Source: Candidatus Latescibacterota bacterium
Lineage (GTDB): Bacteria > Latescibacterota > CBDEFO01
Assembly: GCA_965248755.1 (NCBI GenBank)
Contig: OZ252149.1
Span: 2,496,001 to 2,560,000, forward strand
Length of the DNA stretch: 64,000 nt
Reading direction: 5' to 3'
Under the pieces are notes generated by a model. The model searched no databases, was not told where the DNA came from, and worked only from the letters and a program-made list of their open reading frames with translations. Shown here piece after piece: positions 5,615 to 63,940 of this stretch. Position 1 is the stretch's first letter. Every line of letters begins with the position of its first letter. The position numbers were made by a program, and so were the translations under genes.

Positions 5615-5728
5615 AGCCCCCGATTGAATCTATCAGGGGTAGAACAGGGCACTGCCTCCCGTCCCTGATTGCTGTCTACTTATTCGGGGGACCCTTGAGA
5701 GCAGATTTTCTTAAATACTCCAGGAGCA

Positions 5729-7567
5729 TTGGCCATTTTGTTCAAACGCCCAATCGTCACTCTTTTGATCGCATCAAGCGCGGTGTTATGGAGCGGGTTG
5801 GCCAGTTTTACCAGTCCCTTCAAAAACTTCGAGGAACGTACCGTAGACTGGCGTTTTCTTTTTCGGGGACCGCGCGGCGAAAGAGCACCTGAGATTGTCC
5901 TTGTTCTTATTGAAGAGGAAGCCGATCTTGATTATCGCTCGCCTATTCCTCGTAAGCATCTTGCCGAAATTATCGAAACGCTTTCTGAAGCGAAGCTTAT
6001 CGGTCTCGATATTTTTCTGGATAAACCCTCCTTTGATAAAGAGGGAGATGCTCGGCTGAAACGAGCAATCGAGCAAAACCATCGGGTTATTGGAGTATCC
6101 TTCATCGGTGGTGGGCAGGAGCATAAGCTGCATCCTTATTTCAGAGATGCTTTGCTGGATTTTGGGTACGCCACTTTTTCCACGGGTGCCGACCTGGAAG
6201 TGATCCGCAAAGGCACTGTTGCATGGGATCTTAAGGATGAAAGATCGCTTTCTCTGGCCGGCTGTATCTACGCCCACTATATGGGATTGGATGCGGAGCT
6301 TCTGCGTTCTGGGACCACCGTCAGTCTGCCCGGAGGAATCCCTGTTGGCGGCAGTTTCCCCATTAACTTTTCTGGACCGCCTGCCGAAGTCTATCGCCGC
6401 ACTTCTGATGAGCTACCAGGAGGATTTACGGTATGTCCCAGCCATCTCTTAATTTCAGGAATCTACCCCAGTGCGGTCTTTAAAGAAAAAATTGTCCTGA
6501 TCGGGTCCGGTCTGGACGACACGCCGGACCGCTTTCGCACACCTTTTTTCGCCTCTTCTTTCGGTTACGAAAAGATGCTCGGTGTAGAAGTCCACGCCCA
6601 TTCCTTGCGGACACTTCTATCGGGAGAGCACCTAAAGTCGTGGGGAGAAGGTTTAAGTTTCCTATCCATTTTTGTCCTTGCTTTGGTTATAGCTTGGGCC
6701 GTCTTATATACCGACACCCTCAAGAGCGCCGGTGTGCTGATTATCTCGCTGATGGGTTTATGGGTCATCGGTTTCATCCTGTTTAGCCAACGCGATATGT
6801 TGCTACCGCTGGTCCTTCCGTCTTTAGGAATGCTCTGCTCTTACGGCATCGCGACCGCCTATTATGCGTTGACCGAAGGTCGGGAAAAACGGCGCACGCG
6901 CCGACTCTTTGAGAAATATCTGTCTCCGGATGTTATCCACGAATTTCTCCAGGACCCGACCAATTGGGAACTCGGGGGCAAAAGCGTGGATATCACCGTG
7001 ATGTTTGCCGACTTGGAAGGATTTACACCGCTTTCTGAGAGCCTCACTCCCGAAGATATGGTATCTCTGATCAACAAGTATTTCACCCAAATGTCGGCTA
7101 TTATCCTGCAACACAGTGGAACCATTGACAAATACGAAGGAGATCTCATCATGGCCTTTTTCGGCGCCCCTCTGCCTCAAGAAGATCATGCGGTACGGTC
7201 CTGCCGTGCCGCCCTACAGATGCAAGAGGCAATAGTCTTATTGAACCAGCGTTGGGATGCCCAAGGTTACCCTGAGCTGCGCGTACGGATCGGTTTGCAC
7301 AGTGGCCAAGCCGTGGTTGGTAATATGGGATCTGATTTTCGTTTTAATTACACCGCAATGGGGGATACCGTGAATTTAGCTGCACGGCTCGAGAAGGCCA
7401 ATAAAGAATTCGGGACATATACCCTGATTAGCCAAGCGACACGGGCTCAGGCTGGAAATGGATTCCGTTATCGCAGTTTAGGGGAAATTAAGGTGAGGGG
7501 TAGGAGTGAATCAACTACAGTGTATGAACTGCTGCCAGCAGCGGACAGAGAAAACTCTCAAGCCTGA
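5729..7567 (+). CDS. CHASE2-domain adenylate cyclase (class III)
   Basis: Intact MFADLEGFT, IDKYEGD, YTAMGDTVNLAARLE; Lys/Thr specificity residues indicate ATP. Confidence 0.9.
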   Translation: MAILFKRPIVTLLIASSAVLWSGLASFTSPFKNFEERTVDWRFLFRGPRGERAPEIVLVLIEEEADLDYRSPIPRKHLAEIIETLSEAKLIGLDIFLDKPSFDKEGDARLKRAIEQNHRVIGVSFIGGGQEHKLHPYFRDALLDFGYATFSTGADLEVIRKGTVAWDLKDERSLSLAGCIYAHYMGLDAELLRSGTTVSLPGGIPVGGSFPINFSGPPAEVYRRTSDELPGGFTVCPSHLLISGIYPSAVFKEKIVLIGSGLDDTPDRFRTPFFASSFGYEKMLGVEVHAHSLRTLLSGEHLKSWGEGLSFLSIFVLALVIAWAVLYTDTLKSAGVLIISLMGLWVIGFILFSQRDMLLPLVLPSLGMLCSYGIATAYYALTEGREKRRTRRLFEKYLSPDVIHEFLQDPTNWELGGKSVDITVMFADLEGFTPLSESLTPEDMVSLINKYFTQMSAIILQHSGTIDKYEGDLIMAFFGAPLPQEDHAVRSCRAALQMQEAIVLLNQRWDAQGYPELRVRIGLHSGQAVVGNMGSDFRFNYTAMGDTVNLAARLEKANKEFGTYTLISQATRAQAGNGFRYRSLGEIKVRGRSESTTVYELLPAADRENSQA

Positions 7568-7646
7568 GTTTAGTAGTAGAAGCTATTTCCAGAAGAGACG
7601 CTTGCGAATCAAAACTTATTGGTAAAGCCTATCAGATAATGGAGGT

Positions 7647-8044: not shown

Positions 8045-8839
8045 CTACTCAGTTTGGTGATGTGATGTTTTTGCAGTTCGGGGTTTTGTTTGTTTTTTAG
8101 CCTGCCGCAGGCGGTAGCTTTCTCCATTGGCCTCCAGTATATGGCATCTGTGTGTAAGACGATCCAGGAGAGCGCCGGTTAATCGCTCAGAGCCAAAGAC
8201 CTCGATCCATTCATCAAAGGACAGGTTAGACGTGACCATGAGGCTATGATGCTCATACGCCTGGCTTATCACCTCGAACAGGAGTTCAGCCCCTGTTTTG
8301 GTAAAAGGAACATATCTCAATTCATCAAGAACAAGTACCTTAAGTCGCTGCAGTTGTTTCTGAAGTCTTTGCAGCCTCCTTTCTTCTCGGCATTCCAGTA
8401 ACTCTGTGACCAATTTGGTGACAGTAAAAAAGCGGACTTTTCGTCCCTGTGTACACGCGGCAAAGGCTAAGGCACATGCCAGATGTGTCTTGCCGGCACC
8501 GGGATTTCCAATGAGCAGAACATTTTCCTTTTTGTCGATGTACTCACCCCTCATCAGTTCTCGAATCAACGGTTCATTGAGAGAGGGTTGCACCTTGAAG
8601 TCATATGTGTCCATAGTTTTGATTACAGGGAAGTCAGCTTCTCTGACCCGTCTCTCTGCGGCTCTTTTTTCCCGGTCCAGTAGCTCCCTTTCCGCAAGGC
8701 GCATTAGATAGGTTTGGTAATCAGAACCATCGTTTCGGTATACTATAGCCATGGATGCGTATTCCCCGAGGATCGTTGGCAGCTTCAGTTTCTTCAAATA
8801 GTACTCTATTAGGACAGCTGGTTTATCTTTTTCATTCAT
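8045..8839 (-). CDS. istB: IS21-family helper ATPase IstB
   Basis: Walker A GNPGAGKT, LVLDELRYVP (usually DELGY), TSNL..W, ALLDRLTH, GESYRL. Confidence 0.9.
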   Translation of the reverse strand: MNEKDKPAVLIEYYLKKLKLPTILGEYASMAIVYRNDGSDYQTYLMRLAERELLDREKRAAERRVREADFPVIKTMDTYDFKVQPSLNEPLIRELMRGEYIDKKENVLLIGNPGAGKTHLACALAFAACTQGRKVRFFTVTKLVTELLECREERRLQRLQKQLQRLKVLVLDELRYVPFTKTGAELLFEVISQAYEHHSLMVTSNLSFDEWIEVFGSERLTGALLDRLTHRCHILEANGESYRLRQAKKQTKPRTAKTSHHQTE

Positions 8840-9526
8840 GCCGCACCTCCGTCAGACAAGAGTAAGCTATACGCCGATATATCCGGCTTGTCTACTTGTA
8901 CTCGACGAAGATGTTCGCAGCCGTCAAGGTTAAACGTTGTAAGTCCGAGTGATGGCCGGGGAATAAGGAACTGGGCAATGGCATCTCTGCTGTGGGCTCG
9001 TATGCATACGCCCTTTTCAACTGCCCGTTTGAGTTTGGCCACGGGATAGTCTTCCAGAAGTCGGAGTACCCTGATAAATTCCCTGATTCCATATCCTTCT
9101 TTTTCTTCCTCTGCAACCAACCGCCGGCGTAACGTGTCAAAACATTCCGGTAGATTCAGCTCTGCCCATCGGACGAGCGTCATCAAGTGACCCCGGCTTT
9201 CGTTCCAACAGAGGAAGATAATGGACGTAATCAAAAAAGATTCCCTGCTTGCCCCATGACCGTTTATGTTCAGCAACTATAGTTGCTATATGACAGAGAA
9301 CAACACGATCAAAATAACCTTTGGCCAGTATCTCATGATGGGCATAAGCAACCGGCACAGAATAGTCATTGTCGTCAAACCTGACAAGAGATAAGGTATT
9401 GGCCCTGGTCGGATGTTTCCTACACGCGTCAAAGGGAGAGGGCAGCAAAGGGATAAAAGCAGCCTGATCTTCAAACAGAAGTTCCGCTTAAGTTCCAGTC
9501 TGGCCCCGAAGACTGCGCTTCATATC
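8836..9526 (-). pseudogene. istA: IS21-family transposase IstA, 3' part with frameshifts
   Basis: LVRFDDNDYSVP..HYLPLLERKPGSLDDARP split across three minus-strand frames; overlaps the istB start. Confidence 0.85.
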
Positions 9527-10873
9527 GGGTGTGTAAGGAAATTTGTGTAAATGGGGAAATGAGTTATATTAGTTGTCCACCATTTACATAAGGAGTTCTT
9601 ACATGGACAAGCTAGACCCGAAGTTGATTGATGAGCTTTTGAAGGATTACAAGAAGCCGGAAGACATAATTGGTGAGGAAGGTCTTTTGAAGCAGTTGAC
9701 GAAGGCGATTCTTGAGCGGGCTCTGGAGTCAGAGCTTACGTATGAGTTAGGCTACGATAAGAGTTCTCCAGAAGGGAGGAACAGCGGTAATTCGCGCAAC
9801 GGTAGGAGCACAAAGGGATTGAAGACAGATTATGGTGATCTGGAGATATCGGTGCCACGGGATCGGAACAGTCAGTTTGATCCGCAGATAGTGAGGAAGG
9901 GGCAGAGGCGATTTACAGGCTTTGATGATAAGATACTGTCTATGTATGCCCGAGGGATGACCACACGTGATATACAGGCTCATTTGGAGGAGATATACGG
10001 TGTAGAGGTGTCCCCTGATTTGATATCGACTGTGACCGATGGGATCATATCAGAGGTGAAGCAGTGGCAGGATCGTCCTTTGGAAGGGGTGTATCCCATA
10101 GTATTCTTTGATTCTCTGGTGATGAAGATTAGAGACGAAGGCCGGATCGTAAACAAGGCGGTGTATCTTGCGGTAGGGGTCGGTCTGGATGGGATGAAAG
10201 ACGTTTTGGGTATCTGGATTGCAAAGAGCGAGGGGGCGAAGTTCTGGCTGCAAGTTTTCACGGAGCTTAAGAATCGGGGGATGAACGATGTGTTGATAGC
10301 TTGCGTGGATGGTCTCCAGGGTCTTCCAGAGGCTATTGAATCCGTATTTCCCCAAGCAGAGGTCCAGCTCTGTATTGTCCATGTGGTGAGGAATTCCTTG
10401 AAGTTCGTGTCGTATAAGGACCATAAGAAGATTGCCGCCGACCTCAAGAATATATACCGAGCCCCCACGGTAGAACAGGCTGAAGAGGCCCTTGGAGATT
10501 TTCAGGAGGCTTGGGACAGCCGTTATCCGATGATAAGTAAATCGTGGCAGAATAACTGGTCTCGGATCATCCCGTTTTTCGCCTACTCTGAAGAGATCCG
10601 AAGGGTGATCTATACCACAAACGCCATCGAATCGCTTAATAACTCTCTACGGAAAGTAATAAAGAACAGAAATAGCTTCCCAAACGACGAGACAGCGATT
10701 AAGTTACTCTATATGACACTCAAGAATATCAAGAAAAAATGGACGATGCCGATCAGGAACTGGAGCTTGGCCATTCACCAATTCTCCATCCACTTCGAGG
10801 GGAGATTTGGTATAGAATAAGCCGAAAAGGGTACAGAAGAAAATCCCATTTACACAAAAAAACTGACAGACCC
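9527..10873 (+). mobile_element. IS256-family insertion sequence, copy 1 (1347 bp)
   Basis: Imperfect TIRs GGGTGTGTAAGGAAATTTGTGTAAATGGG / CCCATTTACACAAAAAAACTGACAGACCC around a transposase; near-identical to copy 2. Confidence 0.92.
9573..10820 (+). CDS. IS256 (Mutator) family transposase; likely start ATG 9603
   Basis: RNG..VPRDR, YPIVFFD, CVDGL, QLCIVH, YTTNAIESLN. Confidence 0.95.
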   Translation: MSTIYIRSSYMDKLDPKLIDELLKDYKKPEDIIGEEGLLKQLTKAILERALESELTYELGYDKSSPEGRNSGNSRNGRSTKGLKTDYGDLEISVPRDRNSQFDPQIVRKGQRRFTGFDDKILSMYARGMTTRDIQAHLEEIYGVEVSPDLISTVTDGIISEVKQWQDRPLEGVYPIVFFDSLVMKIRDEGRIVNKAVYLAVGVGLDGMKDVLGIWIAKSEGAKFWLQVFTELKNRGMNDVLIACVDGLQGLPEAIESVFPQAEVQLCIVHVVRNSLKFVSYKDHKKIAADLKNIYRAPTVEQAEEALGDFQEAWDSRYPMISKSWQNNWSRIIPFFAYSEEIRRVIYTTNAIESLNNSLRKVIKNRNSFPNDETAIKLLYMTLKNIKKKWTMPIRNWSLAIHQFSIHFEGRFGIE

Positions 10874-10875
10874 TT

Positions 10876-11039
10876 CTTATAGCTTCAACTTTGGGTATTT
10901 TGATCCCCATTGTTTTCAAAAAGCTGGGCGTAGATCCCGCTGTGGCCTCAGGGCTTCGATAACCACAGCAAACGATGTTCTGGGGTTGTCTATCTATCTG
11001 TCTCTGGCTACAGCTATGCTCAGACATTTTAACCCTTAA
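10876..11039 (+). pseudogene. mgtE: 3' remnant of magnesium transporter MgtE, frameshifted
   Basis: Manual translation LIASTLGILIPIVFKKLGVDPAVASG / ITTANDVLGLSIYLSLA matches the MgtE C-terminal DPA..SGP.ITT..D motif; abuts the IS256 right end. Confidence 0.75.
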
Positions 11040-11133
11040 AGTTGCTTTTGTGAGATAAGTGTATGGGCTCATTTGGAGCCACTACTTGTGTTTTTATCGA
11101 CGCATATTGTAAAGATGACACCAGCTTGAAGTT

Positions 11134-13555: not shown

Positions 13556-13593
13556 CCATAAAAAAGCACAGTGAGTATCTTCCCAATGTGCTT

Positions 13594-19151: not shown

Positions 19152-19358
19152 TTGACAGCGGACACTACCCTCTCCTCCCTTGAATCCCAGATCGAACCCC
19201 CGATAGATTCAATCGGGGATCGGGGCAGAAGCCCATCGCAATGACTGAAGATACCCATGCCAATGACTGAAGGCAAAAGCAAGAAACGTTATTGCGAGCC
19301 AAGCGAAGCAATCTCGTAGACAGGGTATTCTCCGCTTGTCCACCATAAGAAGAGAAAA

Positions 19359-20604: not shown

Positions 20605-20922
20605 CTGCCAGATAGAAATATCCGTTCTGTTTGCATCAAGGTCCCCGATGGATTCAATCGGGGATGAGAAATTTCGGCTCTTTACGGCGATATAGTGCTC
20701 ACACTAAACGAATTACAAGGTATTGCAGCAGATCGTCCAGCGCTTCTTACCCGAAGGGAATTAACTCCTTGATCAAAGAAATGCCAACATCTAAATCCTG
20801 AACCTTTCTTTCAATTGACTTGTCCCCGATAGACTCAATCGGGGATACGAACTTATTTTTCTCATTACTGGCTCCTTGAGTTAAAGATTTGAAGTTTTTA
20901 TGCTAACTACTGTTAGATACCC
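20605..20922 (-). pseudogene. Degraded N-terminal fragment of a second IS256-like transposase with its left end
   Basis: Manual translation MRKISSY..SIERKVQDLDVGISLIKELIPFG*EALDDLLQ..YRRKE..KQNGYFYL; GGG-starting end at 20922; carries two 21-bp palindromes. Confidence 0.5.
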
Positions 20923-27971: not shown

Positions 27972-28055
27972 GATCAATCAAGTCCCTGTGCGATGAAAGT
28001 GCATCGTTTACAAGGAGGAATTCTATATGAGATAGCGCCTTGGAGTATCCTTGAT

Positions 28056-28076
28056 CCCCGATAGATTCAATCGGGG
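28056..28076. repeat. 21-bp palindromic element, reference copy; others at 5618, 19198, 20643, 20824, 39628, 39749, 41858 (degenerate), 42225 (nested) and 62841 (variant)
   Basis: CCCCGATAGATTCAATCGGGG: 10-bp arms with one conserved A.A mismatch and one variable central base. Confidence 0.92.
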
Positions 28077-28184
28077 AGGGATCTTTCGGGCGTTTTTCTG
28101 TTTGTACTGGACTTTGGAAAGAGTAAACTGTTCAAAACACTTAACTCCGAAGGACTCTGTTCTTTCTTTAAAGGAGGTCGAGCT

Positions 28185-30553: not shown

Positions 30554-33500
30554 ATGCACAGGGATATTTGTAGGATAGCTCTAACGGCGGTCATCGCCGT
30601 TGTCCTCTACGTCACACCTGCAGGGGCGGCAAAGTGGAGGACATACACTACAGAAGATGGTCTGGCGAGCAACCATGTCTATGCGAGCTTGGAGGACAGA
30701 GAGGGCAACCTGTGGTTTGGAACTGAAGGGGGTGTGAGCCGCTATGATGGGATGTGGACAACCTACACCACAGCAGATGGGCTGGCGTACAACTCGGTCC
30801 GTTCGATCTTAGAGGATAGTGAGGGTAACTTGTGGTTTGGCACTGATAATGGAACTGTGAGCCGCTATGATGGCGTGAAATGGACGACCTTCACCTCAGA
30901 AGATGGTCTACCATTCAACCCGGTAAGTCCAGCTGGTCTACCATTCGACCCGATAATTAGGAGCTTGGAGGACAGAGAGGGCAACCTGTGGTTTGGATTA
31001 GGATTCGGTGGGGGCTTGAGCCGTTATGATGGGGAAAGGTGGACAACCTACACCAAAGCAGATGGCCTGGGAGGCAACAACGTGTTGGCGCTCTTGGAAG
31101 ATAGTGAGGGCAACTTGTGGTTTGGAACTAGACGGGGCGGCGTGAGCCGCTATGATGGGGAAAGATGGAGGACCTTCACCACAGTTGATGGCCTGGTACA
31201 CAACCGGGTCCTTTCGATCTTAGAGGATAGAAAGGGTAACTTGTGGTTTGGAACTAGTAGAGGTGTGAGCCGCTATGACGGGGAAAGATGGACGACCTAC
31301 ACCACAGAAGATGGCCTGGCGGAGAACTGGGTCAATACGATCTCTGAGGATAGTGAGGGCAACCTGTGGTTTGGAACTATATTTGGAGGCGTGAGCCGCT
31401 ATGACGGGGAAAGATGGACGACCTACACCACAGAAGATGGCCTGGCGGACAACTGGGTCAATACGATCTATGAGGATAGTGAGGGCAATCTGTGGTTTGG
31501 CACTCAGAATGGAGGCGTGAGCCGCTATGATGAGACATGGACAACCTACACCACAGTTGATGGCCTAGCGGACAACTCGGTCAGAGCAATCTTAGAGGAT
31601 AGCGAGGGCAATTTGTGGTTTGGGACTTTTGGGGGCGGTGTGAGCCGCTATGATGGGGAGAGATGGACGACCTACACTACATCAGATGGCTTGGCGGGCA
31701 ACCGGGTCTATACAATCTTTGAGGATAGTGCGGGCAATCTGTGGTTTGGAATTGGTGGAGGCGTGAGCCGCTATGATGGGGAAAGATGGATGACCTACAC
31801 CAGAAAAGATGGCTTGGCGGGCAACACGGTCTATTCGATCTTGGAGGATAGTGCGGGCAATCTGTGGTTTGGTACTTTTGCGTTCGGCGTGATCAGCTAT
31901 GATGGGGAGAGATGGACAACCTTCTCCACACGTGATGGCCTAGCAGACAACAATGTCTATACAATCTTGGAGGATAGAGAGGGCAATTTGTGGTTTGGTA
32001 CTTTTGGAGGTGTGAGTCGCTATGATGGGGAGAGATGGACAACCTTCTCCACACCTGATGTCCTAGCAGACAACAGAGTCCATGCGATCTTGGAGGATAG
32101 TGCGGGCAATCTGTGGTTTGGGACTTTTGGGGGCGGTGTGAGCCGCTATGATGGGGAGAAGTGGACGACCTTCTCCACACCTGATGGCCTGGCGGGCAAC
32201 CGGGTCATGGTGATCTTTGAGGACAGGGAAGGCAATCTGTGGTTTGGAACTATATTTGGAGGCGTGAGCCGCTATGATGGGGAAAGGTGGACGACCTTCA
32301 CTACAAAAGATGGTCTGGCACACAACCAGGTCGAGGCGATCATAGAGGATAGTGTAGGCAACCTGTGGTTTGGTACTGAAAGTGGAGGGGTAACCAGATA
32401 CAAAGGTGACAGGACACCGCCCAACACATTTATCTTAGATGGTCCAGATGGAATGATCGGCGCCCCACAAGCTTTCTTCGAATATAGTGGCGGGGATAGG
32501 TTTTCACCAGACGCGGATTTGCAATTTGCGTATGCCATCAAGAGCAATCGGGACAGGCCCAGTGAAGACGATTGGTCGATCTTTTCAGATATTAGCTCTA
32601 CCCTCACAGATCGCTTCCCCAATGGGACCTACACTTTCTACGTACGGGGAAGGGACGAAGTGGGAAACATAGATCCCACTCCAGCCGGGAGAACGTTCAC
32701 TGTGGATTTAACCCCGCCGATAGTGGCGATCAGTTCCCCATCGAGCAACGAAATTATTCATGGTAATGTAAACATCCGGGGCTCGGCCTTCGACAACTCC
32801 GATATCCCCGACTTTGCGAGCTATACGTTGGAATACGGGAAAGGAGCAGATGAGGATAAGATATCAGAATGGCGCAGTATAAGGGATAGCGCCGTGAAGC
32901 CTGTCGTAAATGACCTTTTAGGTGTGTGGGACACCGAAGGGATATTCGGCACCTATGTCCTCAGGCTTGGAGCTGTGGACGGCTTCGATCACAGGAGCAA
33001 GTATGCCATCACCGTCCACGTGGTTGCGGCAGCTGTTGAGGTAGATCGCAGTAGTGGAGGACATATCACCGATTCAGCGAGCAAGGTGGATCTCTACATC
33101 CCCCCCAACGGTATTCCCAAGAGCACGCAGGTGACGATCACTCCCGTTGCGCTTGAAGGTGTCGCAAAGCCCTCTGCTCTGAATTTGCGCCTTATTGGGT
33201 TGGCCTACGACATCGGTCCGAAGGATCTTGCAGTCCTGAAACCTGCAACCTTTACGATATTCCTCAATGAAGACGACATACAGGAGGTGCCAGATCTTGG
33301 GAAGTTGGCAATCTTCACCCGGTCATCTGCGGACAGTCCCTGGGAGAGAGTCGGCGGCACGGTCGATGAGAGGACGGGGAAGATGACAGTAGCCCTCATA
33401 CACTTTGGGAGATTTGCATTGATGGAGGACCTTTCTGTGGATGAGGGGAGTCTGTCCATTTCGGATGTGAACTGTCAGCCGAGGGTCTTCTCCCCAAAGG

Positions 33501-33757
33501 GCGGCGGCTACGACACCAAGACCACGATATCCTTTAATCTTGGAAGAAGGTCAGCGGTTACAGTGAAGGTCTACGATGTCTCAGGACGGTTCAAAAGAAA
33601 GTTGGTCGAGGACAGCGAAATGAATCGAGGGAGTAATGCGGTGGAATGGGAGGGGAGGGATCATGACGGGGAGGTAGTAGTAAGTGGACTCTACGTGGTG
33701 GCTGTGGAAGCTGATGGGAAGCTGGAGACTAAGACAGTTGGGGTGTTGAATAAGTGA
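30554..33757 (+). CDS. Secreted Reg_prop beta-propeller (14 blades) + Ig-like + ZU5-like + FlgD-type C-terminal domain
   Basis: Signal peptide; 14 repeats of WTT.T..DGL..N.V..I.ED.EGNLWFGT.GGVSRYDG; C-terminal PRVFSP..VKVYD..WEGRD..SGLY. Confidence 0.85.
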   Translation: MHRDICRIALTAVIAVVLYVTPAGAAKWRTYTTEDGLASNHVYASLEDREGNLWFGTEGGVSRYDGMWTTYTTADGLAYNSVRSILEDSEGNLWFGTDNGTVSRYDGVKWTTFTSEDGLPFNPVSPAGLPFDPIIRSLEDREGNLWFGLGFGGGLSRYDGERWTTYTKADGLGGNNVLALLEDSEGNLWFGTRRGGVSRYDGERWRTFTTVDGLVHNRVLSILEDRKGNLWFGTSRGVSRYDGERWTTYTTEDGLAENWVNTISEDSEGNLWFGTIFGGVSRYDGERWTTYTTEDGLADNWVNTIYEDSEGNLWFGTQNGGVSRYDETWTTYTTVDGLADNSVRAILEDSEGNLWFGTFGGGVSRYDGERWTTYTTSDGLAGNRVYTIFEDSAGNLWFGIGGGVSRYDGERWMTYTRKDGLAGNTVYSILEDSAGNLWFGTFAFGVISYDGERWTTFSTRDGLADNNVYTILEDREGNLWFGTFGGVSRYDGERWTTFSTPDVLADNRVHAILEDSAGNLWFGTFGGGVSRYDGEKWTTFSTPDGLAGNRVMVIFEDREGNLWFGTIFGGVSRYDGERWTTFTTKDGLAHNQVEAIIEDSVGNLWFGTESGGVTRYKGDRTPPNTFILDGPDGMIGAPQAFFEYSGGDRFSPDADLQFAYAIKSNRDRPSEDDWSIFSDISSTLTDRFPNGTYTFYVRGRDEVGNIDPTPAGRTFTVDLTPPIVAISSPSSNEIIHGNVNIRGSAFDNSDIPDFASYTLEYGKGADEDKISEWRSIRDSAVKPVVNDLLGVWDTEGIFGTYVLRLGAVDGFDHRSKYAITVHVVAAAVEVDRSSGGHITDSASKVDLYIPPNGIPKSTQVTITPVALEGVAKPSALNLRLIGLAYDIGPKDLAVLKPATFTIFLNEDDIQEVPDLGKLAIFTRSSADSPWERVGGTVDERTGKMTVALIHFGRFALMEDLSVDEGSLSISDVNCQPRVFSPKGGGYDTKTTISFNLGRRSAVTVKVYDVSGRFKRKLVEDSEMNRGSNAVEWEGRDHDGEVVVSGLYVVAVEADGKLETKTVGVLNK

Positions 33758-36700
33758 TTTCGGTACTGTGCATACTCAAGGAACGAGGTCACAGGCAGTT
33801 GCTTTGTCGTATAGCTCTAACGGCGGTCATCACCGTTGTCCTCTACGCCACACCTGCAAGGGCGGGAAAGTGGACGACCTACACCACAGCTGATGGCCTG
33901 CTAAGCAACTCGGTCGACGCGATCTTTGAGGATGGTGACGGCAACCTGTGGTTTGTAGGTGACTTGTTTGCAGGTGAAGAAAGAGGTGTGAGCCGCTATG
34001 ATGGGACTTGGACAACCTTCACCACAGCTGATGGCCTGGCGGACAACTTGCTCGGTTCGATCTTGGAGGACAGTGAGGGCAACCTGTGGTTTGGAAGCTT
34101 AAAGGGTGTGAGCCGCTATGATGAGACTTGGACAACCTTCACCACAGCTGATGGACTGGCTAACAACTCGGTCGGTTCGATCTTGGAGGACAGAGAGGGC
34201 AATCTATGGTTTCGGACTGAACGGGGTGTGAGCCGCTATGATGGGGAAAGGTGGACGACCTTCACCACAGCAGATGGCCTGGCGAGCAACTCGGTCAGGG
34301 CAATGTTGGAAGACAGTGAAGGCAACCTGTGGTTTGGAACTAGAGAAGGCGTGAGCCGCTATGATGGGGAGAGATGGACAACCTTCACCGCAACAGGTGG
34401 CCTGGCGCACAAGTCGGTCAGGGCGATGTTGGAAGACAGGGAGGGCAACCTGTGGTTTGGAACTAATGAGGGCGTGAGCCGCTATGATGAAACATGGACG
34501 ACCTACACTACATCAGATGGCCTGGCGGACAATTTGCTCGGTTCGATCTTGGAGGACAGTGAGGGCAACCTGTGGTTTCGAAGCTTAGAGGAGGGTGTGA
34601 GCCGCTATGATGGGGAAAGGTGGACGACCTTCACCACAGCAGATGGCCTGGCGAGCAACTCGGTCAGGGCAATGTTGGAAGACAGTGAAGGCAACCTGTG
34701 GTTTGGAACTAGAGAAGGCGTGAGCCGCTATGATGGGGAGAGATGGACAACCTTCACCGCAACAGATGTCCTGGCGCACAAGTCGGTCTGGAGAATGTTG
34801 GAAGACAGGGAGGGCAACTTGTGGTTTGGAACTAATGAGGGCGTGAGCCGCTATGATGAAACATGGACGACCTACACTACATCAGATGGCCTGGCAGACA
34901 AATCGGTCAATTCGATCTTGGGGGATAGAGAGGGCAATTTGTGGTTTGGTACTTTTGGAGGTGTGAGTAGCTATGATGGGGAGAGATGGACGACCTACAC
35001 CAGAAAAGATGGCCTGGCGGGTAACGTGGTTTTGACGATCTTGGAGGATAGTGCGGGTAACTTGTGGTTTGGAACTTTACAGGGTGTGGGTGTAAGCCGT
35101 TATGATGGGGAAAAGTGGACGACCTACAACACAGCTGATGGTCTGGCGAGTAACGCGGTCCTTTCGATCTTGGAGGATAGTGCGGGCAATCTGTGGTTTG
35201 GTACTTTTGCGTTCGGCGTAAGCCGTTATGATGGGAAAAAGTGGACGACCTACAACACAAAAGATGGCCTGGCGCATAACCAGGTCGGTTCGATCTTTGA
35301 GGATAGTGAGGGCAACCTGTGGTTTGGAACTAGAGGAGGCGTGAGCCGCTATGATGGGGAGAGATGGACAACCTTCTCCACAGCTGATGGCCTAGCACAC
35401 AACATTGTCTATACAATCTTTGAGGATAGAGAGGGCAACTTGTGGTTTGCAACTGGTGGTGGCGCGAGTCGCTATGATGGGGAAAGGTGGACGACTTACA
35501 CTACAGAAGATGGCCTGGCGAACAACATTGTCTTGACGATCTTGAAAGACAGTGAGGGCAACTTATGGTTTGGAACTGTGGGGGGTGTGAGTCGCTATGA
35601 TGGGGAAAGGTGGACGACCTACACTACAGAAGATGGCCTGGCGGACAACTATGTCAATGCGATTTTTGAGGACAGTGAGGGCAAGTTGTGGTTTGGAACT
35701 CTTGAAGGGGTAACCAGATACAGAGTTGACAGATCGCCGCCAAACACATTTATCTTCGATGGGCCAAAAGGAATAATCGGCATCCCACAGGCTTTCTTCC
35801 AATACAGTGGGGGGGATAGGTATTTGCCAGGGGCGGATGTGCAATATGCGTATGCCATCAAGAGCGATCGGAACAGACCTATAGAAGAGGATTGGTCAAG
35901 CTTTACACATCTCACCTCTACCCTTACAGATCCTCTTTCCAACGGCACCTACACATTCTACGTACGGGCAAGTGACAAAGCGGGAAACTTCGATATTAGC
36001 CCCGCTAAAAAGACTTTCACCGTGGATTTAACAGCCCCGACGGTGCTGATTACTTCTCCATCGAACGACGAGATCATTCATGGAGAGATGAGCATCAAGG
36101 GCTCGGCCTTCGACAACTCTGATAAACCCGACTTTGGTAGCTATACGTTGGAATACGGGAAGGGGACAGATGAGGACAAGATATCAGAATGGCGCAGTAT
36201 AAGGGATAGCGCCGTGAAGCCTGTAATAAACGACCTTTTAGGTGTGTGGGACACCGAAGTGCTATTCGGCACCTATGTTCTCCGGCTGAGAGCTGTGGAC
36301 GGCTTCGATCACAGGAGCAAGTATGCCATCACCGTCCACGTGGTTGCGGCAGCCGTTGAGGTAGATCACAGTAGTGGAGGACATATCACCGATTCTGCGA
36401 GCAAGGTGGATCTCTACATTCCCCCCAACGGTATTCCCAAGAGCACGCAGGTGACGATCACTCCCGTTGCGCTTGAAGGTGTCGCGAAGCCCTCTGCTCT
36501 GAATTTGCGCCTTATTGGGATGGCATACGACATCGGTCCGAAGGATCTTGCGGTCCTGAAACCTGCAACCTTTACGATATTCCTCAATGAAAACGACATA
36601 CAGGACGTGCCAGATCTTGGGAAGTTGGCAATCTTTACCCGGTCACCAGCGGACAGTCCTTGGGAGAGAGTCGGCGGCACGGTGGATGAGAGGACGGGGA

Positions 36701-37077
36701 AGATCACAGTCGCCCTCACACACTTTGGGAGATTTGCAGTGATGGAGGACCTTTCTGCGGATGAGGGGAGTCTGTCCATTTCGGATGTAAACTGTCAGCC
36801 GAGGGTCTTTTCTCCAAAGGGCGGCGGCTACGACACCAAGACCACGATATCCTTTAATCTTGGAAGAAGGTCAGCGGTTACAGTGAAGGTTTACGATGTC
36901 TCAGGACGGTTCAAAAGAAAGTTGGTCGAGGACAGCGAAATGAATCGAGGGAGCAATGCGGTGGAATGGGAGGGGAGGGATCATGACGGGGAGGTAGTAG
37001 TAAGTGGACTCTACGTGGTGGCTGTGGAAGCTGATGGGAAGGCGGAAACCAAGACAGTGGGGGTATTGAATAAGTGA
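33754..37077 (+). CDS. Paralog 2 of the secreted beta-propeller protein (15 blades)
   Basis: Same architecture; C-terminal third nearly identical to paralog 1. Confidence 0.85.
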   Translation: MISVLCILKERGHRQLLCRIALTAVITVVLYATPARAGKWTTYTTADGLLSNSVDAIFEDGDGNLWFVGDLFAGEERGVSRYDGTWTTFTTADGLADNLLGSILEDSEGNLWFGSLKGVSRYDETWTTFTTADGLANNSVGSILEDREGNLWFRTERGVSRYDGERWTTFTTADGLASNSVRAMLEDSEGNLWFGTREGVSRYDGERWTTFTATGGLAHKSVRAMLEDREGNLWFGTNEGVSRYDETWTTYTTSDGLADNLLGSILEDSEGNLWFRSLEEGVSRYDGERWTTFTTADGLASNSVRAMLEDSEGNLWFGTREGVSRYDGERWTTFTATDVLAHKSVWRMLEDREGNLWFGTNEGVSRYDETWTTYTTSDGLADKSVNSILGDREGNLWFGTFGGVSSYDGERWTTYTRKDGLAGNVVLTILEDSAGNLWFGTLQGVGVSRYDGEKWTTYNTADGLASNAVLSILEDSAGNLWFGTFAFGVSRYDGKKWTTYNTKDGLAHNQVGSIFEDSEGNLWFGTRGGVSRYDGERWTTFSTADGLAHNIVYTIFEDREGNLWFATGGGASRYDGERWTTYTTEDGLANNIVLTILKDSEGNLWFGTVGGVSRYDGERWTTYTTEDGLADNYVNAIFEDSEGKLWFGTLEGVTRYRVDRSPPNTFIFDGPKGIIGIPQAFFQYSGGDRYLPGADVQYAYAIKSDRNRPIEEDWSSFTHLTSTLTDPLSNGTYTFYVRASDKAGNFDISPAKKTFTVDLTAPTVLITSPSNDEIIHGEMSIKGSAFDNSDKPDFGSYTLEYGKGTDEDKISEWRSIRDSAVKPVINDLLGVWDTEVLFGTYVLRLRAVDGFDHRSKYAITVHVVAAAVEVDHSSGGHITDSASKVDLYIPPNGIPKSTQVTITPVALEGVAKPSALNLRLIGMAYDIGPKDLAVLKPATFTIFLNENDIQDVPDLGKLAIFTRSPADSPWERVGGTVDERTGKITVALTHFGRFAVMEDLSADEGSLSISDVNCQPRVFSPKGGGYDTKTTISFNLGRRSAVTVKVYDVSGRFKRKLVEDSEMNRGSNAVEWEGRDHDGEVVVSGLYVVAVEADGKAETKTVGVLNK

Positions 37078-40000
37078 TTTCGGAATTGTGCATACTTAAG
37101 GAACGAGGTCACAGGCAGTTGCTTTCTCGAATATCTCTAACTGCGGTCATAGCTATTCTCCTCTACGCCACACCGGCAAGGGCGCAAAGGTGGACGACCT
37201 ACACCACAGCAGATGGTCTGGCGGGAAATTCAGTCAGGACGATCTTGGAGGATAGTGATAGCAACCTTTGGTTTGGGACTTCAAAGGGAGGCGTGAGTCG
37301 GTATGACGGGACGTGGACTACCTTCACCACAGCAGATGGGCTGACGAATAACTCGGTCAATGCAATCTTGGAGGATAGCGACAGCAACCTTTGGTTTGGA
37401 ACCGATATGGGGGTGAGCCGATATGATGGGTCGTGGACAACTTTCACCACGGAAGATGGTCTGGCGGGAAATTCAGTCAGGGCGATCTTGGAGGATACTG
37501 AGGGAAACCTGTGGTTTGGAACTGGTACGGGCGCGAGCCGCTATGATGGAGAAAGGTGGACAACTTACACTACATCAGATGGACTGACAAATGACCTGGT
37601 CCATTCGATCTTGGAGGATACTAAGGGCAGCCTATGGTTTGCAACTAATGGAGGTGTAAGCCGCTTTGATGGGACGTGGACGACCTTTACGGTGACAGAT
37701 GGTCTGGCGGACAATGCGGTCTATTCGATCTTGGAGGATACTAAGGGCAACCTGTGGTTCGGAACTAACGGAGGTGCAAGCCGCTTTGATGGGACGTGGA
37801 CGACCTTTACGGTGACCGATGGTCTGGCGGACAATGCGGTCACCGCAATCTTGGAAGATAGCGAGGGCAATTTGTGGTTTGGAACTGAGGGTGGTGCAAG
37901 CCACTATGATGGGTACAGGTGGAAGACCTACCGCACATCAGATGGCCTGGCAAACAACTTGGTCTTAACGATCTTGGGGGACAGCGAGGGCAAGTTGTGG
38001 TTTGGAACTGGTGGGGGAGGCGTGAGCCGTTACAATGGGACGTGGACAACCTACACCACAGCAGATGGCTTGGTGGACAATGGCGTCAGTGCGATTTTGG
38101 AGGATAGTGGGGGTAACTTGTGGTTTGGAACCGGTACCGGCGTGAGCCGTTATGACGGAGCAAGATGGACGACCTACACCGCCGAAGATGGCCTGGCGGA
38201 CGATGAAGTCAATGCGATCTTGGAGGATAGTGACGGCAACCTGTGGTTTGGAACCGGAGGAGGGGTAAGTCGCTTTGATGGGACATGGACGACCTATACC
38301 GTGACCGATGGGCTGGCTAACGACATGGTCTTTACCATTTTGGGGGGCAGTGAGGGCAATCTGTGGTTTGGCACTGAGGGGGGCGTAAGTCGCTATGATG
38401 GGACATGGACGACCTATACTGCGACAGATGGTCTGGCGGACAACGTGGTCAATGCGATCTGGGAGGACAGTGAGAGCAACCTGTGGTTCGGAACTGTGTC
38501 TGGCGTGAGCCGCTATGACGGAGAGCGATGGACAACCTTCACCACAGCAGATGGCCTGGCGGACAATGCAGTCAATGCAATTTTGGAGGACAGTGCAGGC
38601 AACCTGTGGTTTGGAACCGGAGGAGGTGTAAGCCGCTTTGATGGGACATGGACGACCTATACCGTGACCGATGGGCTGGCACATAATGCGGTCAATGGCA
38701 TCTTGGAGGATAGTAAAGGCAACCTGTGGTTTTTGAATGGACTTGCCGACAGAGGTGCAACACGATATGGAGGGGACAGGATACCTCCAAACACTTTGAT
38801 CGTAGATGGACCAGAAGGAATAATCGGCACCCCACAGGCTTTCTTCCAATATAGCGGTGGGGACAGGTTTTCCCCAGAGACAGATGTACAATATGCTTAT
38901 GCCATCAAGAGTAATCGGGACAGGCCTACTGAAGGCGATTGGTCAGACCTTTCACATTTTACCTCCCACCTTACAGATCCCTTCCCAAGCGGAACCTACA
39001 CATTCTATGTAAGGTCGGCGGACAAAGCGGGAAACATCGATCCTACTCCAGCCAAAAGTACCTTCACTGTGGATTTGACCCCACCGATGGTGATGATAAA
39101 TTCTCCATCCAATGACGAGATCATTCATGGGCAGGTAAACATCTTGGGCTCGGCTTTCGACAACTCCGATATTCCCGATTTTGAAAGCTATGCGTTGGAA
39201 TACGGGAGTGGGTCGGATGAAAACAAGATCCTAGAATGGCGGACTATTAGGGAAGCTATGGAGCCTGTAAGGAGCCTTTTGGGCGTGTGGGACACCGAAG
39301 GGATATTCGGCACCTATGTCCTCAGGCTCAGAGCTGTGGACGGCTTCGATCATCGGAGCAAGGACGTTATTACCGTCCACGTCGTTGCGGCAGCCGAGGT
39401 CGTGGATCCCCGTCGTGGGGGGCATATTACTGATGCGGTAAGCAAGGTGAACCTCTACATCCCCCCCAACGGTATTTCCAAAAGCACCCAGGTGACGATT
39501 ACTCCCGTTGCGATTGAGAGTATGACGAATCTGTCTGCTCCGAACGTACAGCTTATTGGGATGGCCTATGACATCGGTCCGCAGGGTCTTGAACTCTTGA
39601 AGCCCTCAACCTTTACGATGTCCCTTTCCCCGATAGAATCAATCGGGGAGCAGGATAACATAGGGGAGTTGCCAGATCTCGGGAAATTGGCAATCTTTAC
39701 CCGGTCATCTGAGGACAGTCCATGGGAGAGGGTCGGCGGCACAGTCCTCCCCGATAGAATCAATCGGGGAGCAATCGGGGATCAGGGGGCGAGGAAGATC
39801 ACAGTCGCCCTCACACACTTTGGGAGATTTGCATTGATGGAGGATCTTTCTGATAAACAGGGGAGTCTTTCCATTTCGGATGTGAACTGCCAGCCGAGGG
39901 TCTTTTCTCCAAAGGGAGGCGGATACGACACCAAGACCACGGTATCCTTTCATCTTGGAAGAAGGTCTGCGGTTACAGTGAAGGTCTACGATGTTTCTGG

Positions 40001-41775: not shown

Positions 41776-41897
41776 TCTTTGTCTCCAGTGTCATCCATGA
41801 AGCGAAGCTTAGCCACAAAGACACAAAACCTCAAACCTTAATATGTTTGTACCTTGTCCCCGATTGGAACTATCACGATTTGGTGGCTGAAGCGCCT

Positions 41898-42743
41898 TTA
41901 CATTTGCCTTTCATACGGGTGGAAGAGCGTCTGTCCACCTACTCTAAAATCCTCTATTATCTTCTGCCCCTGTGGCGAGGTCATCCAGCCTATCAGCGCC
42001 ATAGAATAGACGTAGTTTACGTGGGGGTGAATACTCGGATTGATCGCTATTACTCCGTAAGGGTTGAACAACGCAGAGTCGCCTTGAAACAACACCACAA
42101 TATCAACTTTTCGCGAATACGCAAGGAGTGTTCCTCTATCAATCAGGACGTAGGCCCCCTTCTCATCTGCTATCTGAAGCGTAGCCGCCATGCCCTGACC
42201 CGTCTCTATGTACCATTTTTCCGTCCCCGACCCCGGATTGAATCTATTGGGGGTCAATCGGGGATCTACCCCAGCCTTTTCCCATATCTCCATCTCCTTT
42301 TTATGAGTCCCGGAGTCGTCTCCTCTGGAGGCAAAAAGGGAGTTCTTTGCAAATATCCTCTTCATCGCCGAGAGAACATCAGAGGTTTGAGCTATCCCGG
42401 CAGGGTCATCTCTTGGACCTGCTATCACAAAGTCGTTGTACATTACATCTCGTCTGTTGACCCCGAAGGCCTTTTCTACGAAGTCCTCCTCGGCTTTCCT
42501 TGCATGCACGAGCACGACATCAACATCTCCGTTCTCCCCCAACTTTAGCGCTTTCCCCGTCCCCACAGCTATTACATCCACCTTAACACCAAATAGTTTC
42601 TCAAAAGGAGGGAGTAGCTCTAAAAGGAGACCTGAATTTTCGGTACTCGTGGTCGTTGCAAGCTTTATTCTCTCTTGGGCATCCGCCGGAGACCACAAAA
42701 GGGCACAGATTAAAAGGAGGCTAATGGCTGCTATAACCCTCAT
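41898..42743 (-). CDS. tupA: Tungstate-binding protein TupA-like
   Basis: LATTTSTENSGLL, VGTGKAL, SRGDDSGTHKKE, GQGM, NPY. Confidence 0.92.
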   Translation of the reverse strand: MRVIAAISLLLICALLWSPADAQERIKLATTTSTENSGLLLELLPPFEKLFGVKVDVIAVGTGKALKLGENGDVDVVLVHARKAEEDFVEKAFGVNRRDVMYNDFVIAGPRDDPAGIAQTSDVLSAMKRIFAKNSLFASRGDDSGTHKKEMEIWEKAGVDPRLTPNRFNPGSGTEKWYIETGQGMAATLQIADEKGAYVLIDRGTLLAYSRKVDIVVLFQGDSALFNPYGVIAINPSIHPHVNYVYSMALIGWMTSPQGQKIIEDFRVGGQTLFHPYERQM

Positions 42744-62086: not shown

Positions 62087-62347
62087 GTAGTAGACAGAGC
62101 ACCGCCTCCCTTTCCTTGAGACTGGTTCCGGTCTACTTCCCAACTTCTCCTGACGGGCTCGCGTTTCCTTCGGGGTCGGGGCGAGCGTCCCTCGTAATGA
62201 TTAGATGTCTGGAGGTTAAGAGTCATTGCAAGTATCCCCTGTGTCCTTGCGAGTCCTCCAATGTGTCATTTCGAGCCAAGCGCAGCAATCTCGTAGACCA
62301 GTAGTCAGGGGGAAGCGGAGATGCCCTGTATGCTGTCCAGTTCCAGT

Positions 62348-63940
62348 TCACAGATCCCCTAAGAACACCCTAGTGACTCCCCTTTTGGTCCCGAACCAGA
62401 TGTATTCTCCATCGCGAAGGATCGCCTGCGCCGAGCGATGAGGCAGGCCCTCAGCTTCGGTGAACATCTCCCAGGCATGGTGTCTTCTGTCGAGCCGAAA
62501 GACGCCCGATTGGGATGCTATCCATACAAAGCCATCATCGGCACAGATATCCTTTATATCGCTGGAAGCTGCGCGCGGAGGGAAATATCTCCGCCAGTTG
62601 AGGGCATCTCTATCCGCAGAAAGTATATAGTAGCGTCCGTTCGCTACCACTCCTGTCCCGATTGAAGGAGCGGAAAGCTCCAGGGCATTTGTACCTTTGG
62701 CGATGCCTAACTCCACTGAGGTCTGTACAGGAAGAGCAGAAACCGCAAGCCATATCTCTCCTCTATCTATGGCAATAGAGGTCACAGCGGCGTTATCCAG
62801 GAGTCTGTATATGTCGGTTATTCTGGTCCACACAGAGTCTCCCTCGATTAAATCAGGGGTCGACTTTCCATCATCCTTTAGATATCTGTAGATCCCCTTT
62901 GCCGTTCCGACCCATACGCTCTCATCATCAACTTCCACATCGTAGACGGCTCCTCGTTTTATCTCGTCGGGTCCAGCTTCTTCGATGATGCCGCTTGGGA
63001 CATGGAGGCGATCCAGCCCGTAGGCTGTCCCTATCCAAAGATATTCGTCGTCCAGGCATATGTCTATAACGTTATCCTCCGACAGCCCGTCGAAGGTGGT
63101 AAGGGTGTCCCAGCGATCCTTCTTCTTGTCGTAGCTGGAAAGTCCGTTTATGGTTCCGAACCAGACGTATCTTTCTCCCACAGCGATGGATGTGACGTCG
63201 TTGGTGTTCAGACCGTCTATGTATCTTGCCTCAAAATAGACCCACTTGTTCGTATCTTTATCGAATCGGGTTACGCCAGTGGATGTACCACTTGAAGTGG
63301 AAGCTCCACCGAACCAGATGGAGGGGCCGTCTGTTCCCATAGCCGAGACGTTATTTTCGATGGGTCCGAAGGGGAGCAGTTTTAACTCCAGAATCCTCAG
63401 ATCCGCTACTCCTGTGCCGATACCCCACGTTCCGATCCAGAGATTTCCCCAGTCGTCTTGGATGCTCTCTGTTACAGAATACTTTCTAAAATAGGAATCG
63501 CTTATATATCCTTCGGGGTGGAAGAAATATCCTAAATCCATGATAAGGGAGGGGAGTTGGGGGCGTTCCTTCTTGCGGATCAAGCGACGCGCGAAGCCTC
63601 CCCCGTAGTTCCATAGGTCCCCGGGGGGATACCATCTTGCAACTCCCCTCATGGTATCAAACCATATATCGCCGGAAGTAGGATCGAAGGCAGCCCTTCT
63701 GACCCAGTTGTCAGGGAGGCCGTCGCTCGTGGTGATGGGGTTTTTCCACTCTTGTGTGTACATATCATAAACTCCGACGCCGCCTGTGGTGGCGATGTAT
63801 GCAGTCGCCCCATCGAACGTTATAGACGTAACATAGCGCATATCCAGATAACTTGTCCATCGTTCTTTATCGCGTATGTCGGCCGAGGATGGATCGCTAA
63901 AGAAAACACACAGAGCTATAATAACTATAAGCTTTCTCAT
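62348..63940 (-). CDS. Secreted Reg_prop-like beta-propeller protein
   Basis: Signal peptide; DGLPDNWV, LWIGT, WFGT..G repeats. Confidence 0.8.
   Translation of the reverse strand: MRKLIVIIALCVFFSDPSSADIRDKERWTSYLDMRYVTSITFDGATAYIATTGGVGVYDMYTQEWKNPITTSDGLPDNWVRRAAFDPTSGDIWFDTMRGVARWYPPGDLWNYGGGFARRLIRKKERPQLPSLIMDLGYFFHPEGYISDSYFRKYSVTESIQDDWGNLWIGTWGIGTGVADLRILELKLLPFGPIENNVSAMGTDGPSIWFGGASTSSGTSTGVTRFDKDTNKWVYFEARYIDGLNTNDVTSIAVGERYVWFGTINGLSSYDKKKDRWDTLTTFDGLSEDNVIDICLDDEYLWIGTAYGLDRLHVPSGIIEEAGPDEIKRGAVYDVEVDDESVWVGTAKGIYRYLKDDGKSTPDLIEGDSVWTRITDIYRLLDNAAVTSIAIDRGEIWLAVSALPVQTSVELGIAKGTNALELSAPSIGTGVVANGRYYILSADRDALNWRRYFPPRAASSDIKDICADDGFVWIASQSGVFRLDRRHHAWEMFTEAEGLPHRSAQAILRDGEYIWFGTKRGVTRVFLGDL

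What the first reader, a model, noticed from the sequence alone, without database searches (positions are those of the whole stretch)
5618..62860. A 21-bp palindrome behaves as an ultra-short mobile element in coding and non-coding DNA
Seen: CCCCGATAGA-N-TCAATCGGGG, in either orientation, at 5618, 19198, 20643, 20824, 28056, 39628, 39749 and 42225-42263, with a degenerate copy at 41858 and a variant at 62841. The arms keep one A.A/T.T mismatch. Flanks are unrelated, no fixed target duplication is visible, and no mobilising gene is in the window. Established: REPs with conserved mismatches are substrates of HUH RAYT/TnpA-REP enzymes, and Rickettsia palindromic elements insert in-frame in genes but are several times longer. 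Inference: a minimal non-autonomous element spread in trans by an unidentified enzyme. About 10 sites in 64 kb would extrapolate to hundreds genome-wide.
Basis: partly seen in the sequence, partly recalled or inferred. Interest (0 to 1): 0.9.

Follow-up and report, generated by a model that had tools for sequence, protein, structure and literature searches.

The report
Tiny mobile hairpin with two junctions
A 23-base DNA hairpin has copied itself to roughly 500 places in this bacterium, including in frame inside genes and inside other repeats; it looks like a cut-down relative of a known nuclease-associated repeat, and what moves it is still unknown.

Summary
Confirmed and mobile. The unit is a 23-nt hairpin, Y-CCCCGATTGANTCTATCGGGG-R: 554 sites at up to 3 mismatches, 486 independent, in this genome. 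It occurs in the sister genome G001 but in 0 of 39 other phylum members searched, and in MAGs of other phyla. It is absent at 21 of 182 and 31 of 184 orthologous sites. It adds 7, 11 and 9 residues in frame to window genes.

Junctions are bimodal: +19 (4 target bases overwritten) or +27 (4-nt duplication or 4 carried flank bases). So 'no target duplication' is only partly right. The hairpin matches that of a GTCA-tagged REP found beside Ssn-type GIY-YIG nuclease genes but lacks the tag. No RAYT, Ku or matching transposase was found, G000 has only ssn stumps, and co-occurrence with ssn is not enriched.

Best reading: nick-primed, microhomology-guided copying from an existing hairpin; the enzyme is unproven. 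It works like the Nostoc small dispersed repeats (recalled). This scan noted the same family earlier on other DNA of this genome.

The parts
5617..5639 (+). 23-nt hairpin copy (C...G ends), just after the stop of an AI-2E transporter gene, within heptamer-like repeat DNA
   Evidence: no orthologue in the fetched G001 loci
19197..19219 (-). copy with partial extra arms, beside a GTCATTGCGA-type REP remnant; intergenic
   Evidence: shared with G001 and with contigs of two other studies
20642..20664 (-). copy (T...A ends), one substitution
20823..20845 (-). copy (T...A ends)
28055..28077 (-). copy upstream of a TPR protein gene
39627..39649 (-). copy in frame in the Reg_prop/FlgD gene 37074-40172; net +21 nt (7 aa, reads SPIESIG)
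   Evidence: absent from both tandem paralogues
39748..39780 (-). copy plus an extra arm, in frame in the same gene; net +33 nt (11 aa, LPDRINRGAIG)
   Evidence: absent from both tandem paralogues
41857..41879 (+). decayed copy between ABC transporter genes
   Evidence: 5 mismatches here, 2 in G001
42224..42264 (+). nested copy (element inside arms of an older copy) in frame in the PBP_like_2 binding-protein gene 41898-42743
   Evidence: 9-aa gap in a 51%-identical homologue falls exactly here
62843..62862 (.). shorter related palindrome in frame in gene 62348-63940 (reads about TPDLIEG); membership and insertion unverified
   Evidence: missed by the 5-mismatch scan
30554..37077 (+). two tandem paralogues that supply the empty sites for the 39627 and 39748 insertions

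Best explanation
It is an ultra-short non-autonomous mobile DNA, a 23-nt imperfect hairpin descended from the stem-loop of a CGTC/GTCA-tagged REP (Ssn-related motif) that lost its tag. SHOWN: it is gained at new sites, tolerated in genes when in frame, lands preferentially in or beside other small repeats and in itself, and carries a few flanking bases from earlier sites. Junctions fall mainly into +19 (four target bases, often N-CG-N, overwritten by the 23-mer) and +27 (four extra bases, either a duplicated target 4-mer or a carried 4-mer). INFERRED: it spreads by copying, not by cut-and-paste between fixed ends. A nick in single-stranded, hairpin-rich DNA frees a 3' end. That end primes on an existing copy through 2-4 nt of microhomology, copies the hairpin and rejoins the target four bases ahead or four bases behind. 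LEAST CERTAIN: the nick is made by an Ssn-family GIY-YIG ssDNA nuclease acting on the host REPs into which the hairpin falls.
For: Mobility. Polarity is insertion with overwriting. In the 12 events of +19, the four bases of the empty allele differ from the element's own outer 2+2 bases at 16 of 48 positions, against 17 of 480 in flanks. Net gains in 40 parsed events: +27 x9, +19 x12, +20 x6, +18 x4, +21 x3, +15 x2, +24, +26, +29 and +30 once each, and none at +22, +23 or +25. The lost 4-mer has a central CG in 8 of 12. Carried flanks: CCTG precedes 14 of 37 CCCCGAA arms but 10 of 602 CCCCGAT arms, and CCGA precedes 21 of 55 CCCCAAT arms against 31 of 602. The CCTG form occurs in 50 metagenome stretches of 39-68% GC. 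Host-repeat words lie within 40 nt at 139 of 344 intergenic sites against 5.9% of random intergenic positions (word list chosen after seeing flanks). Ancestry: a GTCA-tagged form occurs in 20 of 301 genomes of another phylum, and one of its hairpins is letter for letter a G000 variant. In L245 such tagged hairpins flank a small GIY-YIG gene. G001 has an intact 107-aa GIY-YIG between inverted NTS-like repeats, and G000 has six stumps of its 5' end. SsnA cuts ssDNA a few nucleotides 5' of such hairpins (PMC11893778).
Against: G000 (one contig, 98% complete) has no intact ssn gene, and none was found in the two richest other-phylum carriers, G041 and G207. Across 301 genomes, ssn is not enriched with the tagged form (5 of 20 against 65 of 281, p=0.79) or with the free form (1 of 3, p=0.55) (incomplete MAGs). 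No Ssn homologue lies within 1.5 kb of the 50 metagenome copies. SsnA cleavage needs the tag bases that this element lacks. Empty sites fold only slightly better than random intergenic DNA (median -2.8 against -2.1 kcal/mol, p=0.005) and no better than random genome (p=0.26). Only 3 of 24 metagenome flank types lay inside a tagged hairpin by my pattern. Half of the 80 absences were dropped as duplicates or unparsed. No intermediate, enzyme activity or new insertion was observed. A fixed offset of 4 in either direction could equally reflect an enzyme's staggered cut.
Confidence: 0.45

Rival explanations
1. A dedicated, still unidentified strand-transfer enzyme excises the hairpin as a short ssDNA circle or oligo (23 nt, or 27 nt with a 4-nt tag). 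It inserts it at a 4-nt target by a staggered or tetranucleotide-guided cut, as HUH enzymes do for REPs; duplication or loss of 4 bp reflects which strand is cut first.
For: Sharp modes at plus and minus 4 with nothing at +23. Exact 4-nt repeats at 19 of 486 sites, all YNNR, with 12 of 19 TCAA/TTGA or CTTG/CAAG, and at 6 of 25 copies in other phyla (not all independent). The CCTG+23 unit inserts cleanly and has a tag-plus-hairpin layout.
Against: No candidate was found. RAYT is absent from G000 and G001, IS110 is found only in G001, no IS end of 9 multicopy families examined resembles the element, and no recurrent gene is bracketed by copies. Unit length varies (nested units of about 35 nt travel), and mismatches are raised within about 5 nt of the junction.
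Confidence: 0.25
2. RNA-mediated copying: transcribed hairpins are reverse-transcribed or used as repair templates at nicks, and second-strand nick position gives duplication or deletion as in target-primed retrotransposition.
For: Mixed duplications and deletions resemble target-primed reverse transcription (recalled). G000 has two RT-domain genes.
Against: No RT match in G001, which has as many lineage-specific sites, nor in G041 or G044. No orientation bias to transcription (107 against 123). No Rfam match in the window.
Confidence: 0.1
3. End-joining capture of a 23-bp fragment at double-strand breaks with 4-nt overhangs (fill-in gives +27, trimming gives +19).
For: Explains the symmetry of plus and minus 4 arithmetically.
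Against: No Ku in 5 of 5 carrier genomes. The mixed product (+23) was seen 0 of 40 times. It does not explain carried flanks.
Confidence: 0.07
4. A host-selected site (protein-binding site, uptake sequence or terminator) that is only lost, not gained, between strains.
For: About 85% of orthologous sites are shared with G001. Copies are mostly outside genes: 54 of 486 lie deep in ORFs that cover 63% of the genome. One stem pair covaries (27 against 4.5 expected).
Against: In-frame and frame-breaking insertions relative to paralogues and IS copies. Empty alleles do not match clean excision. No bias for convergent gaps (65 of 344 against 15% random) or orientation. Patchy cross-phylum distribution.
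Confidence: 0.05

Closest known systems
Small dispersed repeats SDR4-6 of Nostoc punctiforme (Elhai et al. 2008, Genome Res, doi 10.1101/gr.074336.107; paper not held, properties recalled; seen only as cited in PMC5861425 and PMC4390886)
   Same: Size of 21-27 nt, dispersed hairpin, found in a fraction of longer repeats, flank duplications and acquisition of flanking bases (recalled). Precise insertion of SDR5 into a palindromic site (PMC4390886 passage). Mover unknown.
   Different: Different phylum; PMC5861425 says none was found outside Nostocaceae among HIP1-rich cyanobacteria. Sequence kinship is untested. Here a parent repeat family and a bimodal junction of plus or minus 4 are identified, and the element crosses phyla.
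CGTC-tagged REPs (PMC3733652) / NTS and Ssn-related motifs with Ssn GIY-YIG nucleases (PMC11893778)
   Same: The hairpin is identical or near-identical to that of a GTCA-tagged REP in another phylum. The R-Y..R-Y flank preference echoes the AT..AT stem foot. The lineage has hosted ssn.
   Different: No tag, no CCA tail, mostly single rather than dimeric, not flanking ssn in G000, frequently intragenic and nested. The loop is longer than the published SRM pattern allows.
GTAG REPs/REPINs with RAYT (PMC3116915, PMC3733652)
   Same: Short imperfect palindrome in hundreds of copies, non-autonomous.
   Different: No GTAG tag and no RAYT in G000 or G001. The mobile unit is a single hairpin, whereas REP singlets were judged immobile in PMC3116915 (passages).
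Rickettsia palindromic elements and MITEs (review PMC10969869)
   Same: In-frame insertion into unrelated genes.
   Different: RPEs are about 150 bp. MITEs have transposase-matched terminal repeats and a regular duplication; neither was found here.

Membership tests
CGTC REP / Ssn-related motif | CGTC/GTCA tag 5' of the stem | tested here: not met
   exact GTCA next to the 23-mer at 2 of 554 sites
CGTC REP / Ssn-related motif | match to the published SRM pattern (tag, stem, C-containing tail) | tested here: not met
   2 of 554 sites overlap a match even with the loop widened to 8
CGTC REP / Ssn-related motif | hairpin homologous to a tagged family member | tested here: met
   tagged form in 20 of 301 genomes; one hairpin identical to a G000 variant
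CGTC REP / Ssn-related motif | flanks an ssn gene | tested here: not met
   no intact ssn in G000; none within 1.5 kb of 50 metagenome copies; only the tagged relative does (L245)
CGTC REP / Ssn-related motif | bound or cut as ssDNA by Ssn | not testable with these tools
   needs a nuclease assay
GTAG REP / REPIN-RAYT | terminal GTAG tag | tested here: not met
   GTAG precedes 29 of 972 arms
GTAG REP / REPIN-RAYT | RAYT gene flanked by the repeat | tested here: not met
   no PF01797 match in G000 or G001; 0 of 8 RAYT loci of other carriers hold the hairpin
GTAG REP / REPIN-RAYT | inverted doublet as the mobile unit | tested here: not met
   few near neighbours; single hairpins are the polymorphic unit
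Nostoc SDR type (features recalled) | 21-27 nt dispersed unit with empty/filled sites | tested here: met
Nostoc SDR type (features recalled) | hairpin with compensatory changes | tested here: inconclusive
   covariation at the outer pair and at pair 5/17 only, not at the other stem pairs; z of -2.4 to -2.7
Nostoc SDR type (features recalled) | present in a fraction of longer repeats; flank duplication; flank acquisition | tested here: met
Nostoc SDR type (features recalled) | sequence kinship with SDR4-6 | not testable with these tools
   paper and sequences not held
MITE | terminal repeats matching a resident transposase; regular target duplication | tested here: not met
   no likeness to the ends of 9 multicopy families, some poorly delimited; exact duplication at 19 of 486 sites
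Rickettsia palindromic element | length of about 150 bp | tested here: not met
   23-27 nt

The most novel reading that the evidence does not exclude
A 23-nt hairpin is a cross-phylum hyperparasite of REP-nuclease systems. Having shed the tag that makes its parent a substrate, it is written into sites nicked by Ssn-type ssDNA nucleases through a two-register microhomology copy of plus or minus 4 nt. It would be a mobile DNA with no fixed ends, no transposase and no RNA stage, and direct evidence that Ssn nucleases generate repeats.
Probability: 0.22. Interest if true: 0.85.

Novelty: new variant of a known kind. Interest (0 to 1): 0.62.

Why it matters
How repeats under 30 nt multiply is an open question. 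CGTC REPs were reported to lack a transposase (PMC3733652), Ssn's role in spreading its repeats is only a hypothesis (PMC11893778, discussion), and the Nostoc SDR mechanism is unknown (recalled). This family gives dozens of before-and-after alleles with a sharp junction rule, a traceable parent repeat and a named candidate enzyme, so the question becomes testable in vitro. It is also a source of 7-11 residue loop insertions in proteins.

Tried and rejected
A target duplication around a 21-, 22- or 25-nt unit was tested; the signal is sharpest for 23 nt plus 4.
Enzyme searches:
- RAYT: none in G000 or G001.
- Ku: none in 5 genomes.
- IS110: G001 and G042 only.
- RT: G000 and G042 only.
- Four-helix-bundle PF05635: one stop-bearing copy in G000, none in G001.
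- DUF559: none in G000.
- No family was common to all carriers tested.
No recurrent gene is bracketed by copies, and IS ends do not resemble it. Viral contigs gave 0 exact matches and no relative of the G001 GIY-YIG. There were no tRNA or Rfam matches in the window. No RNA holder was listed. The in-ORF frame tally was discarded as circular, because ORFs are stop-free by definition. Aligning the G001 ssn locus to G000 gave no clean empty site. Literature searches found no description of this sequence family; subscription papers and bioRxiv supplements were not searchable. The Nostoc SDR paper could not be read, so how much of the junction pattern it already describes is open. About 40% of G001 was not compared.
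Full report
OBSERVATION. The motif is real. Eight window sites match at up to 3 mismatches, with none expected by chance. 41858 is a decayed copy and 42225-42263 a nested one. The genome (G000, one contig of 4.54 Mb) holds 488 sites at up to 2 mismatches against 0 in a shuffle. With an oriented consensus there are 554 sites at up to 3 mismatches. These collapse to 486 flank-independent sites; the rest ride passively in larger repeats, with the largest clusters at 19, 15 and 8 copies. Contigs from two other studies cross three window copies without an indel there, so this is not an assembly artefact. Record titles and earlier scan notes point to Latescibacterota.

ANATOMY. The bases just outside the 21-mer pair with each other at 365 of 486 sites against 214.5 expected, while the next ones do not (143 against 167). 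The unit is therefore a 23-mer with T..A or C..G ends. It folds as a 7-8 bp stem at about -6.8 kcal/mol on either strand. One internal pair (5/17) covaries, 27 against 4.5 expected; the other stem pairs do not. The T.T mismatch is kept at 461 of 486 sites. Only 54 of 486 copies lie deep in ORFs that cover 63% of the genome. There is no bias in orientation to transcription (107 against 123) or towards convergent gaps.

DISTRIBUTION. It occurs in G001 (same genus, 375 sites at up to 1 mismatch) and in 0 of 39 other genomes of the phylum searched. These carry 36, 10, 6, 8 and 1 copies; the single archaeal copy may be contamination. In a 301-genome sample of G041's phylum the free form was found in 3. 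A 26-nt CCTG-prefixed form hit 50 metagenome stretches of 39-68% GC. Viral contigs gave none.

MOBILITY. In the window, gene 37074-40172 has 7 and 11 extra residues at the two copies relative to both tandem paralogues. The binding-protein gene has 9 extra residues at its copy relative to a 51%-identical homologue. I compared G000 with 140 stretches of 20 kb of G001, about 60% of it. The element was absent at 21 of 182 G000 sites and 31 of 184 G001 sites with homologous flanks, and 28 of 50 G000 sites with paralogous flanks had an empty paralogue ('absent' means no match at up to 4 mismatches). Against this, most sites, including all 8 listed window copies with an orthologue, are shared.

JUNCTIONS. 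Of 80 absences, 40 parsed as independent events; the rest were duplicates or large or unalignable changes. Net gains were +19 (12), +27 (9), +20 (6), +18 (4), +21 (3), +15 (2) and one each of +24, +26, +29 and +30. There were none at +22, +23 or +25. In the +19 class the 23-mer replaces four bases, with a central CG in 8 of 12. Those four differ from the element's own ends at 16 of 48 positions against 17 of 480 in flanks, which argues for insertion with overwriting rather than clean excision. In the +27 class the four extra bases are either a target duplication or foreign. Genome-wide, exact 4-nt repeats flank 19 of 486 sites against 2.9 in shuffles, and 6 of 25 copies in other phyla (not all independent). 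Foreign flanks travel with sequence variants: CCTG with 14 of 37 CCCCGAA arms against 10 of 602, and CCGA with 21 of 55 CCCCAAT arms against 31 of 602. Words of other repeat families lie within 40 nt of 139 of 344 intergenic copies against 5.9% of random positions, and further arms of the element beside 123 of 486 against 2.9% (word lists chosen after inspection).

ORIGIN. A flank printed suggested a tagged parent. A GTCA-tagged form was then found in 20 of 301 genomes, mostly as one arm of inverted dimers. One of its hairpins is identical to a G000 variant present at 7 independent sites. These are CGTC-class REPs (PMC3733652, passages read), reported there to lack a transposase. PMC11893778 (results, discussion and method passages read) shows that such repeats flank Ssn GIY-YIG nucleases, which cut ssDNA a few bases 5' of the hairpin and need the tag. 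G001 has a 107-aa GIY-YIG between inverted repeats of this class. Of 10 homologous loci examined, my pattern flagged flanking repeats at 4 and I saw them by eye at 4 more; L245 is flanked by the tagged relative of our hairpin. G000 retains six 5' stumps. The element itself fails membership: the tag is present at 2 of 554 sites.

ENZYME. Not found. RAYT is absent from G000 and G001 and Ku from 5 of 5 carriers. IS110 and RT are patchy, IS ends do not match, and no recurrent gene is bracketed. Ssn homologues occur in 70 of 301 genomes without enrichment among carriers of the tagged (p=0.79) or free (p=0.55) form. Free and tagged forms co-occur in 2 of 3 (p=0.012; tiny numbers, related genomes). 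The Ssn link therefore rests on ancestry and target choice, not on co-occurrence.

MECHANISM. Variable unit length, carried flanks, overwritten junction bases and nesting fit copying from a resident hairpin primed by short microhomology at a nick, in two preferred registers (0.45). A dedicated strand-transfer enzyme with a 4-nt stagger is the main rival (0.25). RNA templating (0.10), end-joining capture (0.07) and a static host site (0.05) fit worse. Mobility itself is close to certain.

COMPARISON AND VERDICT. It works like the Nostoc small dispersed repeats, whose properties I recall. I could not read that paper and saw only citing passages. Other papers seen: PMC3116915, PMC2884548, PMC10969869, PMC3184786 and bioRxiv 10.64898/2026.09.22.753630, as passages only; no supplements were read. 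Seven searches found no description of this family. Earlier notes of this scan describe the same family in this genome and similar hairpins elsewhere; they are leads, not support. New variant of a known kind; interest 0.62.

Noticed in passing
window 8045-14887: Two IS256-family transposase genes (9573-10820, 13640-14887) bracket YceI and ROK genes, next to an IS21 istB remnant (8045-8839); possible composite arrangement.
   Followed up: no
window 30554-40172: Three tandem paralogous Reg_prop propeller / FlgD-Ig genes, 72-73% identical, differing in repeat number.
   Followed up: partly
window 16084-16806: Small protein with a weak dockerin-like match; about 170 bp of it recur some 22 times in the genome.
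   Followed up: partly
window 26452-26510, 22530-22610, 19230-19300: Copies of a GTCATTGCGA...GCAATCT-type REP; the same type sits beside Ssn homologues in L247 and L248; about 170 copies in the genome.
   Followed up: partly
G000 C1 1272113, 1852135, 2714209, 2979198, 3031452, 3547895: Six stumps of an ssn module, all breaking a few codons into the gene; four share identical upstream DNA at the edge of a multicopy segment.
   Followed up: partly
L215 (G001 C4 478393-481614): Intact Ssn-type GIY-YIG gene between inverted NTS-like repeats, not present at the homologous G000 locus.
   Followed up: partly
G000 genome-wide: Heptamer words TGTCTAC and GTAGACA occur 520 and 505 times; the only PF05635 four-helix-bundle match carries a stop.
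   Followed up: no
G000 C1 3677786-3679310 and 3731483-3732284: Two reverse-transcriptase-domain genes (507 and 266 aa), not found in G001.
   Followed up: no
window 19239-19260: A 22-bp segment next to the 19198 copy is absent in G001 and in three other runs; it looks like a local duplication in the REP remnant.
   Followed up: no
G000 C1 about 1.08 Mb and 50+ other sites: An IS family with about 53 transposase copies that I read as IS1380-like (recalled label); 15 copies carry the hairpin at one shared position.
   Followed up: partly
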